Translations under genes and position numbers: made by a program
Source: Escherichia phage REP8
Length of the DNA stretch: 64,000 nucleotides
Direction: 5' to 3' (one strand)
Sequence record: OQ174507.1
The notes under the pieces: model-generated
Seen by the model: the letters and a program-made list of their open reading frames with translations, nothing else
What the model was told of the DNA's origin: nothing
The model's database searches: none
In this document: in pieces, positions 14,026-58,808 of the stretch
Numbering within the stretch: the stretch's first letter is position 1
How the letters are laid out: each line of letters begins with the position of its first letter

Positions 14026-14355
14026 TTAATCTGCCAACCTTAAATTGAAATTAACACCAAATTTTTCACATACTTCCAACATATACTCAAGGGAGACGTT
14101 ACCAGTGAGATGGATTATGTTGGATACACGAGCCTGAGAGATACCACAAATTTTAGCAACTTGCTCTTGAGAAAGACCTCTGGATTTAATCTCTCTCTTA
14201 AAACGATGTGCAACGAAGTCTCTCATTTCGTCTACATCCATTGGACAAATATAACTCTCCATTTCAGCCTCTCTGTCAGCCTCCCAATCATCTTGTGGAG
14301 CATAAGGGTCAAAAACCTCATTCATCTTTCTTCCTCCGTTTGCGTGGAGTGTCAA
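14026..14355 (-). CDS. helix-turn-helix DNA-binding protein
   Basis: LSQEQVAKICGISQARVSNI resembles an XRE-type HTH. Confidence 0.4.
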   Translation of the reverse strand: MTLHANGGRKMNEVFDPYAPQDDWEADREAEMESYICPMDVDEMRDFVAHRFKREIKSRGLSQEQVAKICGISQARVSNIIHLTGNVSLEYMLEVCEKFGVNFNLRLAD

Positions 14356-21923: not shown

Positions 21924-22088
21924 ACATTACTGCAAAAAATTATAAAAAGCAAGTTGACAATGTACTTGACAAGGTGTTAATCTTTGCGAAGTGGGTTTTT
22001 ACTTAAAAGGTTACTTAACAGTTTAACTATACAGATACTTTAAAACTCTTAAAAGATTATTTAATAGCTTTTAAAAAGCTTTAAAGTA

Positions 22089-22107
22089 TAACGTATAGAA
22101 TACGTTA
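22089..22107. promoter_or_regulatory. perfect 19-bp palindrome in divergent intergenic region
   Basis: TAACGTAT-aga-ATACGTTA between the divergently transcribed polymerase and 22151 genes. Confidence 0.35.
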
Positions 22108-22150
22108 AGATAAAAGATTAAAACTTAATAGTTACTTAAAAGAGGCTTAC

Positions 22151-47331: not shown

Positions 47332-47345
47332 TAAGTAATTTCTTA

Positions 47346-47370
47346 AAAGGCTGCTTCGGCGGCCTTTTTT
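47346..47370 (+). terminator. intrinsic terminator
   Basis: GGCTGC-TTCG-GCGGCC hairpin (one G-U pair) followed by TTTTTT. Confidence 0.5.
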
Positions 47371-49138: not shown

Positions 49139-49162
49139 CAGGCTCCTTCGGGAGCCTTTTTC
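49139..49162 (+). terminator. intrinsic terminator
   Basis: GGCTCC-TTCG-GGAGCC followed by TTTTT. Confidence 0.6.
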
Positions 49163-50701: not shown

Positions 50702-51487
50702 ATGGGTATTGTAAAAATCATCAAAGGTGATATCTTTGACGCCTTTGATAAAGGTAAATTTGATATCATTGGTCATGGTTGCAACTGTATGAATTTCATG
50801 GGTGCAGGTATTGCAGCAACTATTTCTAAGCGTTATCCAAAAGTGTATGATACTGACACAGAAGTTTACCTGTTTGCAGGTGGCATTCGTCACAAACCCT
50901 GTGAAAATTTACTGGGTAATTTCTCCGTAGCACGTTTAAAACAAGGTCGTGTAGCTAACCTTTACACCCAACTCCATACTGGTAAAGATGCCCGATACAG
51001 CGCTTTAGAGTCATCTTTGAAGAAACTTAACAGATACTGTGAAGTTAACCAGTTGAAGAAGGTCGGTCTACCTATGATTGGTGCAGGTATCGGTGGACTT
51101 GACCCTCAAGCTGTCACAGTTATCATTAATCAGGTGATGAAGAGTGTAGATGTTTATCTGTATGTCTACGAGACAGAGATGTACAACGAGTTACACTCAG
51201 GTTGGAAGAACTACTGTGAACCAGAATACTTTGCAGGTGTAGCAGTGTTCACAGATAATGCAGTTACCCTCTTCAGACGAAGACAAGGTAAGGTACATCA
51301 AAGTAACCCTCCGGTTGAAAAGATGTCTCTAAGTAACGCTCTAGTTACCCACCTGTCGAAGAGCAGTCACAGGATTGCAGTAACATTTGGCAGTGATGCA
51401 GATGCTTACATCTATGCAAGAACTGATGAGGATATCGAGACGGTTTTCTCTTCACCAGAAGTTACCTTCTTAGACGCAAAGAACTAA
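50702..51487 (+). CDS. macro domain protein (ADP-ribose binding/processing)
   Basis: IKGDIFD...DIIGHGCNCMNFMGAGIA...LPMIGAGIGGL matches macro-domain Gly-rich loops. Confidence 0.55.
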   Translation: MGIVKIIKGDIFDAFDKGKFDIIGHGCNCMNFMGAGIAATISKRYPKVYDTDTEVYLFAGGIRHKPCENLLGNFSVARLKQGRVANLYTQLHTGKDARYSALESSLKKLNRYCEVNQLKKVGLPMIGAGIGGLDPQAVTVIINQVMKSVDVYLYVYETEMYNELHSGWKNYCEPEYFAGVAVFTDNAVTLFRRRQGKVHQSNPPVEKMSLSNALVTHLSKSSHRIAVTFGSDADAYIYARTDEDIETVFSSPEVTFLDAKN

Positions 51488-51518
51488 GAAACTCTGTAAA
51501 ATATTCACAATAGACTAA

Positions 51519-51561
51519 GCCTTCCTTATCTGGGAAATCTTTCAGGTAAGGAGGGCTTTTT
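51519..51561 (+). terminator. intrinsic terminator
   Basis: 10-bp stem GCCTTCCTTA/TAAGGAGGGC followed by TTTTT. Confidence 0.4.
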
Positions 51562-51738
51562 CATTTCAGGATTGTGCAGGTAGATTTCTGTAGAGAAATC
51601 TGTAGAGAGAATTTTGAACTCCAAAGAGAAAATTCATTTTCAAACTGTGCAGGTAATCTCCAAAGAGCTTTTTCATTTTCAAAACGTGCAGAGAAAAATC
51701 AGGTCGGGCAAGAAAAATCATTTTCGAATTGTGCAGGT
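51559..51738. repeat. four ~23-bp imperfect direct repeats (iteron-like)
   Basis: TTCATTT(T)C...TGTGCAGGTA at ~51562, 51633, 51672 and 51714. Confidence 0.5.
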
Positions 51739-51915
51739 AGGTGGGTGCAGGTGGGGATGTCGCCATTTCTCACAAGGCTACCACATCTGAAAAGAAAAGT
51801 CAACAGAAAAATTTGTAGCGGATTGAAAAATAATTCTTGATTGTAGTTCTGTTTTGTGGTAGTCGCGTGCGCCCGTTTCATTACATTTTTGCCAAAAATA
51901 TTTTTAAAATTTTTA

Positions 51916-51944
51916 TTGACTCCTCGAACGGGTTTTTATAGTAT
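51916..51944 (+). promoter_or_regulatory. cassette promoter 1 (sigma70-like) with downstream 5'UTR hairpin and SD
   Basis: TTGACT-N17-TAGTAT; hairpin GGGGAGG...CTTCCCC 51955-51974; AGGAG 51996-52000; ATG 52009. Confidence 0.5.
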
Positions 51945-52008
51945 TTGCATCAACGGGGAGGAAATGACTTCCCCACTAAATAAAACCCTTAAACTAGGAG
52001 ATTCTAAA

Positions 52009-52392
52009 ATGGCATATCGTGCACCTAAATTCATCAATAAAGACAACTTCCGCAACGCACTGGAAAAATCACTTGATGAGAATTTTACAGGTCAGATTAT
52101 TGTTGTTCACGCATATAATTTTAAGTATGATATTAACGGGAACAGAATCAACCATTACACGGCAACCATGTTAGATGGTGCGCTATCAAGTGAAAAAGCT
52201 GTACTGAATGCACTTGCTGGACGTGGTAAAAACCTGATAAAATGCAATAAGAGACGTTATCAGGGCGGCGCATATGGTTACGATGACGCTGTTTATCATC
52301 TTGAGAATATGGGCTATTCAGTGGAAAAAGCTGGAGTGTCTCAAATAATCGGCAGTGACGGCTATGTGACAATATTCAAAATTAACAAATAA
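52009..52392 (+). CDS. hypothetical early protein
   Basis: Start placed at ATG after SD; the ORF-track N-terminal extension reads through the cassette. Confidence 0.35.
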   Translation: MAYRAPKFINKDNFRNALEKSLDENFTGQIIVVHAYNFKYDINGNRINHYTATMLDGALSSEKAVLNALAGRGKNLIKCNKRRYQGGAYGYDDAVYHLENMGYSVEKAGVSQIIGSDGYVTIFKINK

Positions 52393-53125: not shown

Positions 53126-53187
53126 ACACATCAACGGGGGCGGTAAACCCCCCACTAATTAAAACCCTTAAACTAGGAGATTCTAAA

Positions 53188-57024: not shown

Positions 57025-57063
57025 TCGACGCAGCGGGGATAAATAACCCCAGATACCCCTAAA

Positions 57064-57089
57064 AGCACCTATTTAAAGGTGCTTTTTTA
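57064..57089 (+). terminator. intrinsic terminator
   Basis: AGCACCT-loop-AGGTGCT followed by TTTTTT. Confidence 0.55.
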
Positions 57090-57099
57090 CGTCTATTGA

Positions 57100-58780
57100 A
57101 TCCTTATACAATCCCTTTCCCTCACCTTTCCAGAATCTATCCACTGATTCGATAGAACCTATCTCATACCTTAAAAAGCAATAACTCTATAGTCTACTCT
57201 ATAACCTTTTATCAAATCAACTTAAATAAAAGCCAATAACCCCAGAAAGGGGATGGCCTCTTATTGGTATTGTTACCAATCCCTAAAACGCTCTATAAAG
57301 CTCTATAACAGCCTTATCAACCTAACTTAAGGGATTGCATTAACCAACCTTAAAAAGCTCTTTACAAGGCTTTATAGAGGCTTAAAAGAATCTTATAAGG
57401 TTATAAGCTTTATTATCTCGTTAGCTATCTTGTGAACTACTAAAAGTGCTATGAGATAGGAATCTATGAGGGTAATTCATTACCTGAATCACTATCGAAT
57501 CCTATTGTTATTGTCTTAAAAGTATGTTATAGGGTGCTATAAAGTTACTTTGAAGTAGTTTAAAAGTTACGTAAATGCTAGCCACCTTAACATTTTCTTA
57601 ACAATTTCTTAACAATCCCTACATAGTTATGCTTTTAAGGCACTTGTTAGCAACTTGTTAGCACCTTGTTAAATCTCTGTTAAAACCACGTAAAAGCCTT
57701 GTAAGAACCTTTGACATAGCCTTTAAAGCACCTGTAAAGCACTATAAAGAGCTATCCATACAGTTGAGGGGTAAATACTAGGGAGAGCCTTAAAAGAGCC
57801 TATAAAGAGCTATAGAGAGCTTTTAAAAGGTATGTTTAAGAAATCACTAAGAGGGAAAGGGAACGATAAGAAAAGAGGTAGTGACCATGTTAATAGCTTG
57901 TTAAAAAGGTTAAACACTTGTTAGGAACTTGTTAATTATCTAACTGGTATTGTTACCAATCCCTAACAAAATAACCCTTAAAAATTAACCTGTTAGCTCT
58001 TGTTAGTCATCTATTAAGATTCTGTAAAGCCTATTCAGTACTTGTTAAAAGACTGTTACCCTCTTGTTAAAACTGTTAGAAATCTATTAAGACCCTTAAA
58101 GAGATGTTAAAAGGTTGTAAGAACTGTTGAGAGATTGTTAATGATATTTTAAAATTTTGCAAAGGGGATGTTAAGGAGCTGTTAAGGGCTACCAAGCAGA
58201 TATACATCCTCAACAGATATTTTTGAGTTCCTTCAAAGACCCTAAAAAAATGACTTGATAGTCCTATTTTATAAAAATTTTAAAATTCTGAATAATTACC
58301 TATACAGTCTTTCTAAAATACAGGTAGAAACAGGCTTATAAGATACCTTGTTAGTACCGTGTTAGACCTTGTGAGATAAGGTCTGTAAAGATATTCCTGT
58401 TAAGTTTGTTAAAACAGTCTATATAGAGGCTTAGTAATACCTAGTGAACACCTATAGAGGGTATCATAGCTGACATAGAGATTAAGAGGTGTATAGGAGC
58501 TTCTAAGAGGGTATATAGGGATGGTTAAGGTGATTGTATAGGTTGTTAAGAAGACTTGTTAGAGGGCTTGTTAGAGGGCTTGTTAGAAGGATTATACAGA
58601 GGGGCTATTAAGACCACTAGGTAGTTACTAAGATACTATATAGTACTATATAACTATATAGAGAGTAAGATTAAAAAGGTTGTTAAGAAGGATAGATATT
58701 TTGTTCACATATGATGGTGACCCAGAGGTTGGGACAACCGATAAAATTTTATAAAAAATATAAATTTCGTAAATTTTACT
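57100..58780. repeat. ORF-free AT-rich repeat-dense region (candidate origin, packaging or regulatory region)
   Basis: No ORF >=60 aa in any frame; many TTGTTA(A/G) motifs; 13-bp tandem repeat x3 at 58555-58590; identical 22-bp repeat at 57265-57286 and 57945-57966. Confidence 0.5.
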
Positions 58781-58783
58781 CAA

Positions 58784-58808
58784 TAAAAAGCCCCCAATTA
58801 AGGAGGCT
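58784..58808 (-). terminator. intrinsic terminator
   Basis: Minus strand GCCTCC-loop-GGGGGC hairpin followed by TTTTT. Confidence 0.45.

What the first reader, a model, noticed from the sequence alone, without database searches (positions are those of the whole stretch)
51559..51738. Four iteron-like ~23-bp direct repeats between the macro-domain gene and the early-gene array
The 300-bp intergenic region contains four copies of TTCATTT(T)C...TGTGCAGGTA at about 51562, 51633, 51672 and 51714 (spacing 71, 39 and 42 bp), plus a fifth partial GTGCAGGTG. Half-site-like sequences (TTCATTTCAGGA, TTGTGCAGAG) also follow the terminators at ~49157 and ~47380. Spurious ORFs here are built from the repeats. 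This looks like a clustered protein-binding site array: a replication origin or a regulator binding region.
Basis: seen in the sequence. Interest (0 to 1): 0.5.

Follow-up and report, generated by a model that had tools for sequence, protein, structure and literature searches.

The report
Conserved iteron-like repeats in Felix O1-type phage
A Felix O1-type phage has four same-direction copies of a 26-bp motif at a single place in its genome, about 6.5 kb from one DNA end; related phages keep the arrangement even where the motif sequence has changed, so it is probably a docking site for a phage protein, perhaps a replication origin, though no function has been shown.

Summary
The window is a Felixounavirus, 100% identical to Escherichia phage REP9 over the region compared. 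Four direct copies of TCATTTY-N6-GTGCAG start at 51561, 51634, 51673 and 51718 (0.27 expected by chance). A motif matrix scores them 36-37 bits, and the next best site in the 85.7-kb genome scores 11. The array lies in a 521-bp spacer between the terminator of the macro-domain gene and the first sigma-70 promoter of the early-gene block.

The motif and position are kept in Felixounavirus, Suspvirus, Mooglevirus, Kolesnikvirus and a distant metagenomic relative. Pectobacterium phage Arno162 has the same layout with an unrelated, also genome-unique, 33-bp repeat. That favours a co-evolving phage-encoded binder over a host factor such as DnaA.

The array is not a genome end. The ~0.6-kb terminal repeat maps to 57,581-58,193, so the array sits about 6.5 kb (7.5%) from the right end, at the inner edge of the early block.

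Function is unproven. My best guess is an initiator-binding origin (0.35). Rivals are a boundary or DNA-entry element like the T5 injection-stop signal, and a regulator site. Generic origin signals are stronger at about 22 kb. I found no published description, though one key paper was not readable.

The parts
51517..51558 (+). Intrinsic terminator (19-bp stem) ending the rIIA...macro-domain operon. Its T-tract is the 5' part of repeat copy 1.
   Evidence: Terminator scan; sequence.
51556..51584 (+). Repeat copy 1: CTTTTTCATTTCAGGATTGTGCAGGTAGA
   Evidence: Pattern match; motif-matrix score 36.4 bits.
51582..51605 (+). Two 12-bp tandem units (AGATTTCTGTAG / AGAAATCTGTAG) filling the double-length gap between copies 1 and 2. 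Kolesnikvirus has a full extra repeat copy at this position.
   Evidence: the repeat finder family D6; alignment A2.
51629..51657 (+). Repeat copy 2: AAAATTCATTTTCAAACTGTGCAGGTAAT, preceded by TGAACTCCAAAGAG.
   Evidence: 37.3 bits.
51668..51696 (+). Repeat copy 3: CTTTTTCATTTTCAAAACGTGCAGAGAAA, preceded by ATCTCCAAAGAG.
   Evidence: 35.9 bits.
51713..51741 (+). Repeat copy 4: AAAAATCATTTTCGAATTGTGCAGGTAGG, preceded by GGTCGGGCAAG.
   Evidence: 36.4 bits.
51745..51765 (+). Partial fifth GTGCAGGTGGG within a G-rich block. Felix O1, SUSP1, the Mooglevirus phages (Maleficent, Sf15) and Kolesnikvirus have a C-rich block at this position; Arno162 has a GC-rich one.
   Evidence: the repeat finder family D3; alignment A2.
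51785..51818 (+). Degenerate further copy (AAAAGTCAACAGAAAAATTTGTAG), 62% identical to copy 2. It is well conserved in Felixounavirus, Suspvirus and Mooglevirus.
   Evidence: the repeat finder family D1; alignment A2 columns 320-345.
51916..51944 (+). First early promoter (TTGACT-17-TATAGT) with an AT-rich upstream tract at 51876-51915.
   Evidence: Promoter scan; stability profile.
51948..52008 (+). Early-gene leader cassette (hairpin plus ribosome-binding site). It recurs, in full or in part, before seven other early genes in the window.
   Evidence: Self-BLAST.
50702..51487 (+). Macro-domain gene (OARD1/TARG1-like), the conserved upstream neighbour of the array.
   Evidence: Pfam; PDB sequence search; synteny.
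57581..58193 (.). Context: position of the ~0.6-kb direct terminal repeat (physical genome ends), 5.85 kb to the right of the array.
   Evidence: SeKF_63 has an exact 613-bp repeat at both record ends. MET-P1-301 has a 544-bp end repeat. The BPS15Q2 record opens here. The UAB_Phi87 SpeI map agrees (PMC4837284).
47364..47392 (+). Weak repeat-like sequence after the terminator at 47345-47368. It is not statistically distinguishable from chance.
   Evidence: 4.7 bits against a shuffled-genome maximum of 19.3.

Best explanation
The array is a cis-acting docking site. It consists of four head-to-tail copies, plus degenerate ones, of an asymmetric two-part motif (TCATTT-N7-GTGCA inside a 26-29-bp core, unit about 40 bp). 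I infer that each copy binds one molecule of a phage-encoded sequence-specific DNA-binding protein, and that together they build a nucleoprotein complex at the inner border of the terminal early-gene block.

The function I think most likely is origin recognition. An early-made initiator would load on the iterons, next to a GC-rich block and an AT-rich, strongly transcribed promoter region, and recruit the phage's T7-type primase-helicase and polymerase.

Shown: the repeats, their uniqueness in the genome, their conservation, their position relative to genes and genome ends, and the replacement of the repeat sequence in Arno162.

Inferred: protein binding, that the binder is phage-encoded, and origin activity.
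For: - Four copies against 0.27 expected.
- Motif-matrix scores of 36-37 bits, against 11 for the next best site in the whole 85.7-kb genome.
- Same motif, copy number and orientation, downstream of the macro-domain gene, in Felixounavirus, Suspvirus, Mooglevirus and Kolesnikvirus. The same holds in an 88-kb metagenomic relative whose proteins are 30-58% identical.
- In Erwinia phages, the repeat segment is the only part of the 331-bp noncoding query that BLAST still aligns.
- Arno162 has four direct repeats spaced 89/47/47 bp at the same place, followed by a GC-rich block, but with a different 33-bp core. That core is unique in its 91.7-kb genome. This is the pattern known for iteron/initiator pairs such as those of lambdoid phages and iteron plasmids (established knowledge).
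- The 3' flank differs by lineage (GTGCAGGTA against GTGCATAGG), although the hosts share the same DnaA specificity.
- No copies occur in plasmids, E. coli genomes or other bacterial genomes.
- The layout of iterons, then a GC-rich block, then an AT-rich patch (top 0.17% least stable at 40 bp) with a strong promoter resembles iteron origins such as RK2 oriV and ori-lambda (from my own knowledge).
Against: - No Rep/O-like initiator was found next to the array or among the proteins scanned.
- The replisome is T7-like, and T7 origins are promoter-driven without iterons.
- No substantial unwinding element adjoins the array: it ranks only in the top 4-9% at 80-150 bp.
- The least stable DNA, the GC-skew minimum and the divergent polymerase/primase promoters are all at 21.9-22.1 kb.
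- Repeat spacing (37-45 bp) is not in helical phase and differs between genera.
- Copy 1 overlaps a terminator T-tract.
- There is no experimental evidence of binding or origin activity.
Confidence: 0.35

Rival explanations
1. The array is a boundary or DNA-entry element of the terminal early block, working like the injection-stop signal (iss) proposed for T5. The right genome end enters first. A protein bound to the array, either a virion protein or a host protein, holds or pauses the DNA once all the outward-facing early promoters are inside the cell. Alternatively, it marks the limit of the early domain for a later step.
For: - The terminal repeat maps to 57,581-58,193. The array is therefore 6.45-6.6 kb, about 7.5% of the genome, from the right end, immediately beyond the innermost early promoter.
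- The T5 iss lies 7.9% from the entering end, in a noncoding repeat region that is better conserved than the neighbouring genes (bioRxiv 10.1101/866236).
- The same layout holds in Kolesnikvirus (array about 8 kb from the conserved terminus block) and in Arno162.
- In Kolesnikvirus the 3' half of the repeat reads CTATGCACA on the other strand, one mismatch from the DnaA box TTATGCACA, which is one of the consensus boxes listed in the iss regions of T5-like phages.
- ORFs 16 and 20-22 of the block peak at 5 min (PMC3185647, Table 3).
Against: - Two-step transfer has never been reported for Felix O1-type phages in the literature I could search.
- ORF13, the macro-domain gene upstream of the array, and many distant genes also peak at 5 min, so any pause would have to be short.
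- The sequence replacement in Arno162 and the poor DnaA-box match in Felixounavirus (6/9) argue against a host factor. A phage-encoded binder would have to travel in the virion.
- The array lies outside the short terminal repeat, unlike the T5 iss.
- It lacks the inverted repeats, palindromes and paired DnaA boxes of T5.
- The T5 mechanism is itself only a hypothesis.
Confidence: 0.2
2. The array is a transcriptional control site. A phage-encoded regulator binds it to insulate the early block from read-through out of the upstream operon, to modulate the first early promoter from a distance, or to nucleate silencing that spreads over the early block late in infection (like a parS/sopC-type array).
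For: - It lies between a terminator and the first early promoter.
- Copy 1 overlaps the terminator tail.
- The ~40-bp direct-repeat units resemble the sopC array of F plasmid, which has 43-bp units (my own knowledge).
- Temporal regulation in Felix O1 is unexplained, and no phage RNA polymerase or sigma factor is known (PMC3185647).
- The phage encodes an XRE-type helix-turn-helix protein at 14026-14325.
Against: - The copies lie 175-360 bp upstream of the -35 element, and only before the first of several early genes that carry a repeated leader cassette of their own.
- Direct asymmetric repeats are unusual for XRE-type dimeric repressors.
- No ParA/ParB-type partner was found.
- No promoter-like element lies within the array, and it does not fit sigma-70 or sigma-E spacing (and my own inspection).
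Confidence: 0.2
3. The repeats are binding sites for a host protein (DnaA or another nucleoid protein) that the phage exploits.
For: Kolesnikvirus copies and the copies in the metagenomic relative (L041) match the DnaA box TTWTNCACA at 5-7 of its 8 specified positions.
Against: - Felixounavirus, Suspvirus and Mooglevirus copies match only 5 of the 8 specified positions.
- The equally conserved TCATTTTCAAA half is not part of a DnaA box.
- Arno162 has an unrelated repeat, although Pectobacterium, Erwinia and E. coli share DnaA specificity.
- I saw no IHF, Fis, CRP or marbox fit on inspection.
- E. coli genomes hold no similar sequence.
Confidence: 0.07
4. The repeats are neutral relics of duplicated terminator tails, or a genome terminus or packaging site.
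For: - The 5' part of the unit (CTTTTTCATTT) equals the tail of two terminators.
- Several assemblies break just to the right of the array.
Against: - Conservation across lineages whose proteins are only 30-58% identical, with invariant TCATTT and GTGCA blocks, rules out neutrality.
- The physical ends map 5.85 kb away.
- PhageTerm-based terminal repeats of 581 bp are reported for another Felixounavirus (PMC8303462).
Confidence: 0.03

Closest known systems
Iteron-type origins (ori-lambda with four 19-bp O-protein sites; RK2 oriV, P1 and F plasmid origins; T4 oriE with its iterons and RepEB)
   Same: A single cluster per genome of 4-5 direct repeats about 20-26 bp long. The motif is lineage-specific and changes while the architecture is kept. 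GC-rich and AT-rich blocks and a promoter lie next to it.
   Different: No initiator gene is adjacent or recognisable. The spacing is 37-45 bp rather than about 22 bp, and is not in helical phase. There is no clear unwinding element and no good DnaA or IHF site in Felixounavirus. Activity is untested.
Phage T5 injection-stop signal (iss, Repeat Region 3 of the left terminal repeat)
   Same: A noncoding, highly conserved repeat region at the inner border of a terminal block of variable small early genes, 7.5% (here) against 7.9% (T5) of the genome from an end. Kolesnikvirus copies contain DnaA-box-like 9-mers.
   Different: The T5 region is 1.2 kb long, lies inside a 10-kb terminal repeat, and is built of inverted repeats, palindromes and paired consensus DnaA boxes. 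Here there are four simple direct repeats, outside a 0.6-kb terminal repeat. No A1/A2 homologues or two-step transfer are known for this group.
Centromere-like direct-repeat arrays (F sopC with 12 x 43-bp units; R1 parC)
   Same: Tandem direct units of about 40 bp that nucleate a DNA-binding protein.
   Different: No partition ATPase or ParB-like partner was found. This is a virulent phage with no obvious need for partition. The units are not contiguous and are not internally palindromic.
T4-type PeSL cassettes (promoter-early stem-loop repeats)
   Same: They lie in the same early region. The neighbouring 60-bp leader cassette (51948-52008) behaves like a PeSL and recurs before seven other early genes.
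   Different: The iteron array itself is not repeated elsewhere and is not tied to individual genes.

Membership tests
Iteron-type replication origin | Three or more direct repeats of about 17-26 bp in one orientation, clustered at one locus per replicon | tested here: met
   Four copies on the + strand and no others in the 85.7-kb genome. The same holds in Arno162.
Iteron-type replication origin | Adjacent AT-rich DNA-unwinding element | tested here: inconclusive
   Only a 40-bp AT patch at 51876-51915 (top 0.17% least stable). At 80-150 bp the region ranks only in the top 4-9%. The least stable regions are at 22.0 kb and 58.2-58.8 kb.
Iteron-type replication origin | Cognate initiator (Rep/O-type) gene, usually adjacent | tested here: not met
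   The neighbours are a macro-domain protein and small proteins with no Pfam match. The primase-helicase shows only Toprim and DnaB_C domains. This was not an exhaustive scan of all ~120 protein-coding genes.
Iteron-type replication origin | Repeat sequence co-varies with lineage while the architecture is kept | tested here: met
   GTGCAGGTA against GTGCATAGG flanks; an unrelated 33-bp core in Arno162.
Iteron-type replication origin | Origin activity, or initiation mapped at the site | not testable with these tools
   GC skew simply follows gene orientation (minimum at 21,930) and is uninformative here.
T5-type injection-stop signal | Conserved noncoding repeat region at the inner border of a terminal early block, about 8% from the entering end | tested here: met
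   The array is 6.45-6.6 kb (7.5%) from the right end as defined by the terminal repeat at 57,581-58,193. Which end enters first is not known.
T5-type injection-stop signal | Located within the long terminal repeat; built of inverted repeats, palindromes and paired consensus DnaA boxes | tested here: not met
   The array lies outside the 0.6-kb terminal repeat and has direct repeats only. The DnaA-box match is 5/8 specified positions in Felixounavirus and 7/8 in Kolesnikvirus.
T5-type injection-stop signal | Two-step DNA transfer dependent on pre-early proteins (A1/A2) | not testable with these tools
   No report was found in the searchable literature.
Genome terminus or pac/cos site | Coincides with the physical ends or terminal-repeat boundaries | tested here: not met
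   The terminal repeat is 5.85 kb to the right. The UAB_Phi87 SpeI fragments fit that position: predicted 4431 and 2751 bp, reported 4322 and 2819 bp (PMC4837284).
Phage-specific promoter class | Motif recurs upstream of many genes | tested here: not met
   The locus is unique. It fits neither sigma-70 nor sigma-E spacing (and my own inspection).
Known structured RNA or CRISPR-like array | Match to an Rfam family; repeat-spacer geometry | tested here: not met
   There are no Rfam matches above noise. The 13-19-bp 'spacers' are too short and are themselves conserved.

The most novel reading that the evidence does not exclude
Felix O1-type myoviruses organise their genome like T5. A terminal block of about 6 kb of outward-transcribed takeover genes enters first. 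The iteron array, bound by a phage-specified and possibly virion-borne protein, is a hold-and-release or domain-boundary signal that separates this block from the rest of the chromosome. That would make staged DNA entry, or terminal-domain control, a feature of a second, unrelated phage group. It would also give a simple four-site signal that can be dissected genetically.
Probability: 0.12. Interest if true: 0.75.

Novelty: new member of a known kind. Interest (0 to 1): 0.45.

Why it matters
Felix O1-type phages (Ounavirinae) are classic Salmonella typing phages and are widely used in biocontrol and therapy. Their replication origin, temporal regulation and mode of DNA entry are all unknown; the Felix O1 genome paper states that regulation is unexplained (PMC3185647).

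This array is the most strongly conserved noncoding element found in the region examined. It gives a concrete, small target of four 26-bp sites for deletion, footprinting, pull-down of the binding protein, and plasmid-based origin or 'phage-encoded resistance'-type interference tests. The Arno162 variant offers a natural specificity swap for identifying the binder.

Knowing that the array sits about 6.5 kb from a physical end also helps place the early block in the infection programme. It matters for engineering these phages too, because insertions near this site could be harmful.

Tried and rejected
**Genome terminus.** I first accepted, then corrected, the idea that the terminal repeat lies in the tRNA region. 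The UAB_Phi87 record has 542 identical bases at both ends, but a SpeI site at position 1134 is incompatible with the published terminal fragments. The real repeat maps to 57,581-58,193. Either way the array is not a terminus.

**Sigma-70 or sigma-E promoters.** The spacing does not fit (15 nt, or 18 nt against the consensus 16) and the -35-like element is not conserved between copies. This rests on the scan and my own inspection.

**Host-factor sites.** DnaA, IHF, Fis, CRP, LexA, sigma-54 and marbox sites show no consistent match on inspection. Only the lineages with the GTGCATAGG-type flank are DnaA-box-like.

**The macro-domain protein as the binder.** BPS17L1-type phages carry an allele only 40% identical, with a very different C-terminal part, yet have identical iterons.

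**Chi sites and RecBCD protection.** Arno162 has an exact Chi site just after its array, but this genome has none at all.

**Structured RNA.** No Rfam hit.

**Similar arrays elsewhere.** Plasmids and E. coli genomes hold nothing. The matches in bacterial genomes and in non-Ounavirinae viral contigs are not this motif: all bacterial matches score below 14 bits on the motif matrix, and most of the non-Ounavirinae viral matches lie in repetitive, coding-looking tail-fibre-like sequence.

**GC skew.** It follows gene orientation only.

**More distant macro-domain homologues** (P0010, P0022, P0024). These sit in different gene contexts with no array.

**Literature.** The Felix O1 paper lists other repeats but not these, and the wV8 text contains none of the search terms. 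The phiEa21-4 paper could not be read. No supplement with Bas63 intergenic fitness data was available.

Full report
**Identity of the window.** The region 51400-52100 is 100% identical to Escherichia phages REP9-REP12 and 84-99% identical to about 190 other Felixounavirus records; weaker matches reach Suspvirus, Mooglevirus and the Erwinia Kolesnikviruses. Joining the window to the missing 21.7 kb of REP9 gives an 85,673-bp genome, which I used for whole-genome tests.

**The observation.** The pattern TCATTTY-N6-GTGCAG occurs four times, at 51561, 51634, 51673 and 51718, all on the + strand. It occurs nowhere else in 64 kb even with one mismatch allowed. Chance expectation is 0.27, and 0 of 100 shuffles reached 4. 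The repeat finder recovers the same families, the partial GTGCAGGTGGG at 51745 and a degenerate copy at 51785-51818. The spacing is 73, 39 and 45 bp.

The spacer between the macro-domain gene stop (51487) and the next start codon (52009) is 521 bp. It begins with a strong terminator at 51517-51558, whose T-tract forms the start of copy 1. It ends with a TTGACT-17-TATAGT promoter at 51916-51944.

A motif matrix built from 24 copies in five phages scores the four sites at 36-37 bits. The next best site in the whole genome scores 11 bits, below the maximum seen in shuffled genomes (19.3). The 'half-sites' after the terminators at 47364 and 49156 are therefore not separable from chance, although the 16-nt identity at 49156 is real.

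**Anatomy.** Aligning copies within and between genera shows two invariant blocks, TCATTT and GTGCA, separated by 7 nt, inside a 26-29-bp core (W5-TCATTTTCAAA-NY-GTGCAGGTA). A semi-conserved element precedes the core (GGACTCC-AAAGRG in E. coli, Shigella and Citrobacter phages; GGTCTGG-CAAG in Erwinia phages), giving a unit of about 40 bp. The motif is asymmetric and all copies point the same way. Spacings are 73-75/39-41/45 bp in Felixounavirus, Suspvirus and Mooglevirus, and 37/37/39 bp in Kolesnikvirus. Kolesnikvirus has a full copy where Felixounavirus has the double-length gap. The copies are therefore not kept on one face of the helix.

**Conservation.** The array lies directly downstream of the macro-domain gene in every Ounavirinae lineage examined. 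In Erwinia phages, the repeat segment (query 94-196) is the only part of the 331-bp noncoding query that BLAST still aligns.

An 88-kb metagenomic contig (L041), whose proteins are only 30-58% identical to those of the window, still carries about five copies of TCATTTTAAAAACGTGCATAGG after its macro-domain gene.

Most informative is Pectobacterium phage Arno162, an unclassified member of Ounavirinae whose macro-domain protein is 44% identical. It has the same layout:
- macro-domain gene, then a terminator-like hairpin;
- four direct repeats spaced 89/47/47 bp;
- a GC-rich block;
- a block of small + strand genes;
- a 1.5-kb noncoding stretch rich in TGTTAA motifs.

Its repeat core, however, is TCACATTGCAAAACTCGTTGGAAAAAAGTGCTC. 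This core is unrelated to the Felix type and unique in the 91.7-kb genome: four copies have 0-3 mismatches and the next best site has 11.

Architecture kept while sequence is replaced is what one expects of sites that co-evolve with a phage-encoded binding protein. It argues against a conserved host factor.

Consistent with this, the 3' half of the repeat is DnaA-box-like in Kolesnikvirus (CTATGCACA on the other strand) but poor in Felixounavirus (ACCTGCACA). No similar sequence exists in plasmids, E. coli genomes or other bacterial genomes; matches to the loose two-copy pattern there score below 14 bits. Most matches to that pattern in non-Ounavirinae viral contigs lie in repetitive, coding-looking tail-fibre-like sequence.

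**Position relative to the genome ends.** I first took the 542-bp duplication at the ends of the UAB_Phi87 RefSeq record, in the tRNA region, as the experimentally mapped terminal repeat. This was wrong. A SpeI site at record position 1134 would give a 1.1-kb terminal fragment, whereas the paper reports Bal31-sensitive SpeI fragments of 4322 and 2819 bp (PMC4837284).

Several lines place the terminal repeat elsewhere:
- Salmonella phage SeKF_63 carries an exact 613-bp repeat at both record ends, corresponding to window 57,581-58,193.
- Escherichia phage MET-P1-301 has a 544-bp end repeat covering window 57,602-58,176.
- The BPS15Q2 record opens at about 57,567.
- In UAB_Phi87 the homologous segment sits in a 6568-bp SpeI fragment. 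This predicts terminal fragments of 4431 and 2751 bp, close to the published sizes.
- A PhageTerm-based terminal repeat of 581 bp is published for another Felixounavirus (PMC8303462).

The array is therefore 5.85 kb inside the terminal repeat and 6.45-6.6 kb (about 7.5% of the genome) from the right physical end. Between the array and that end lie about 12 small genes, many preceded by a promoter-like sequence and a recurring 60-bp leader, all transcribed toward the end, followed by the noncoding terminus region. Felix O1 ORFs 16 and 20-22 in this block peak at 5 min, but so does ORF13, the macro-domain gene on the other side of the array (PMC3185647, Table 3).

One disagreement remains. The authors of the Kolesnikvirus Fifi318 genome opened their record upstream of terL on the basis of PhageTerm output. 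However, the only piece of the Felixounavirus terminus region that Erwinia phages conserve (window 58,114-58,206) lies about 8 kb to the right of their array.

**What the array is not.**
- It is not a terminus (see above).
- It is not a class of promoters. The locus is unique and fits neither sigma-70 nor sigma-E geometry.
- It is not a known RNA.
- It is not coding, because the cross-genus alignment has non-triplet indels.
- It is not bound specifically by the adjacent macro-domain protein, as far as co-variation can tell. BPS17L1-type phages have an allele only 40% identical but the same iterons.

**Function.** The form fits an iteron-type origin: a unique cluster of asymmetric two-part direct repeats, lineage-specific in sequence, next to a GC-rich block, an AT-rich patch and a strong promoter.

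Against this, I found no initiator gene. Pfam scans of 28 proteins, including the neighbours and the primase-helicase, gave only Macro, Toprim/DnaB_C, a weak below-threshold SLT hit and one XRE-type helix-turn-helix protein. The AT-rich patch is only 40 bp long. The generic origin signals are all at 21.9-22.1 kb: the GC-skew minimum, the least stable 150-bp window in the genome, and the divergent polymerase/primase genes.

The position invites comparison with the T5 injection-stop region, which lies 7.9% from the entering end at the inner edge of the pre-early block and is better conserved than its neighbouring genes (bioRxiv 10.1101/866236). However, the two differ in composition, two-step entry is unknown for this group, and a phage-encoded binder would have to be carried in the virion.

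A regulatory or insulator role is also possible, but it fits poorly with sites 175-360 bp upstream of only the first of several early genes that carry their own leader cassette.

I therefore rate the general claim, a functional phage-specific protein-docking array, at about 0.85. For specific roles I give origin 0.35, boundary or entry element 0.2, regulator 0.2, host-factor site 0.07 and relic or terminus 0.03.

**Novelty.** The Felix O1 genome paper lists other direct repeats but not these, and the text of the wV8 paper contains none of the search terms. The papers found on UAB_Phi87 and the other phages, which I searched only for genome-end terms, showed no mention either, and a search for 'Felix O1' with 'iterons' found nothing. 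The phiEa21-4 paper could not be read, so a prior mention there cannot be excluded. As a kind of element it is familiar; as a feature of this phage group it appears to be undescribed.

Noticed in passing
window 57,040-58,790: A 1.75-kb noncoding stretch between the last + strand early gene and the first - strand gene. No ORF of 40 aa or more lies in 57,025-58,075, and there is no tRNA. It is packed with repeats of 10-12-bp period: CTTGTTAG/CTTGTTAAA, CTATAAAGAG, and TCTTAACA at one boundary with TGTTAAG at the other. It contains the ~0.6-kb direct terminal repeat (57,581-58,193). The block 58,114-58,206 at its right boundary is conserved as far as Erwinia phages, and Arno162 has a similar TGTTAA-rich region. 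It is probably the terminase recognition and cleavage region.
   Followed up: partly
NC_027360.1 (UAB_Phi87) record ends, loci L006/L007: The RefSeq record has 542 identical bases at both ends, inside the tRNA cluster. This is incompatible with the published Bal31/SpeI terminal fragments (a SpeI site lies at position 1134), so it looks like an assembly overlap rather than the reported 608-bp terminal repeat.
   Followed up: yes
window 51,948-52,008 and further copies at 53,150; 53,991; 54,321; 55,216; 55,784; 56,383; 56,715: A leader cassette of about 60 bp (hairpin plus AGGAG ribosome-binding site) recurs before seven other early genes at 85-97% identity; two of the copies are partial. It resembles the promoter-early stem-loop (PeSL) cassettes thought to shuffle early genes in T4-type phages.
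   Followed up: partly
window 21,924-22,150: The divergent spacer between the DNA polymerase (- strand) and the primase-helicase operon (+ strand) is the GC-skew minimum of the genome and its least stable 150-bp window. It carries CTTAAAAG/TTACTTAAAAG repeats, and the TTAAAAG core is also frequent in the terminus region. It is an alternative candidate for the replication origin, or a phage-specific promoter motif.
   Followed up: partly
window 51,738-51,790; L014, L012, L013, L011 and L091 at the equivalent position: The block just after the array is hypervariable but always GC-rich and strand-asymmetric. It is G-rich on the + strand here (GGTAGGTGGGTGCAGGTGGGG). In Felix O1, SUSP1, the Mooglevirus phages and Kolesnikvirus it is C-rich (a G-quadruplex-type run on the - strand). 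In Arno162 it is GC-rich and contains an exact Chi site, while this genome has no Chi site at all.
   Followed up: partly
window 50,702-51,487: The 'phosphatase' is an OARD1/TARG1-like macro-domain protein (residues 25-141) with an extra C-terminal region of about 100 aa that has no Pfam match. BPS17L1-type Felixounaviruses carry an allele only 40% identical. Macro domains of this type can remove ADP-ribose from proteins or DNA, so an anti-defence role is possible.
   Followed up: partly
GenBank MN850610 (Andreotti) ends, loci L004/L005; IMG/VR contigs L022, L034, L045, L060, L067, L068, L072: Several independent assemblies break at window ~51,776-51,900, just to the right of the array. Andreotti's ends show inverted-repeat chimeras, and one Logan contig (L090) ends in Nextera adapter sequence. 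These are probably assembly breaks at the repeated promoter and leader cassettes, not physical ends.
   Followed up: partly
PQ051114.1 (Fifi318), loci L082/L083: This Kolesnikvirus record was opened from PhageTerm output just upstream of terL, after the tRNA cluster. That disagrees with the terminus position inferred by homology to Felixounavirus (about 8 kb to the right of the array).
   Followed up: no
window 14,026-14,325 (- strand): This is the only helix-turn-helix DNA-binding protein found among the 28 proteins scanned: a 99-aa XRE/Cro-type HTH_3 protein (E = 5e-10). It is a candidate regulator whose target is unknown.
   Followed up: no
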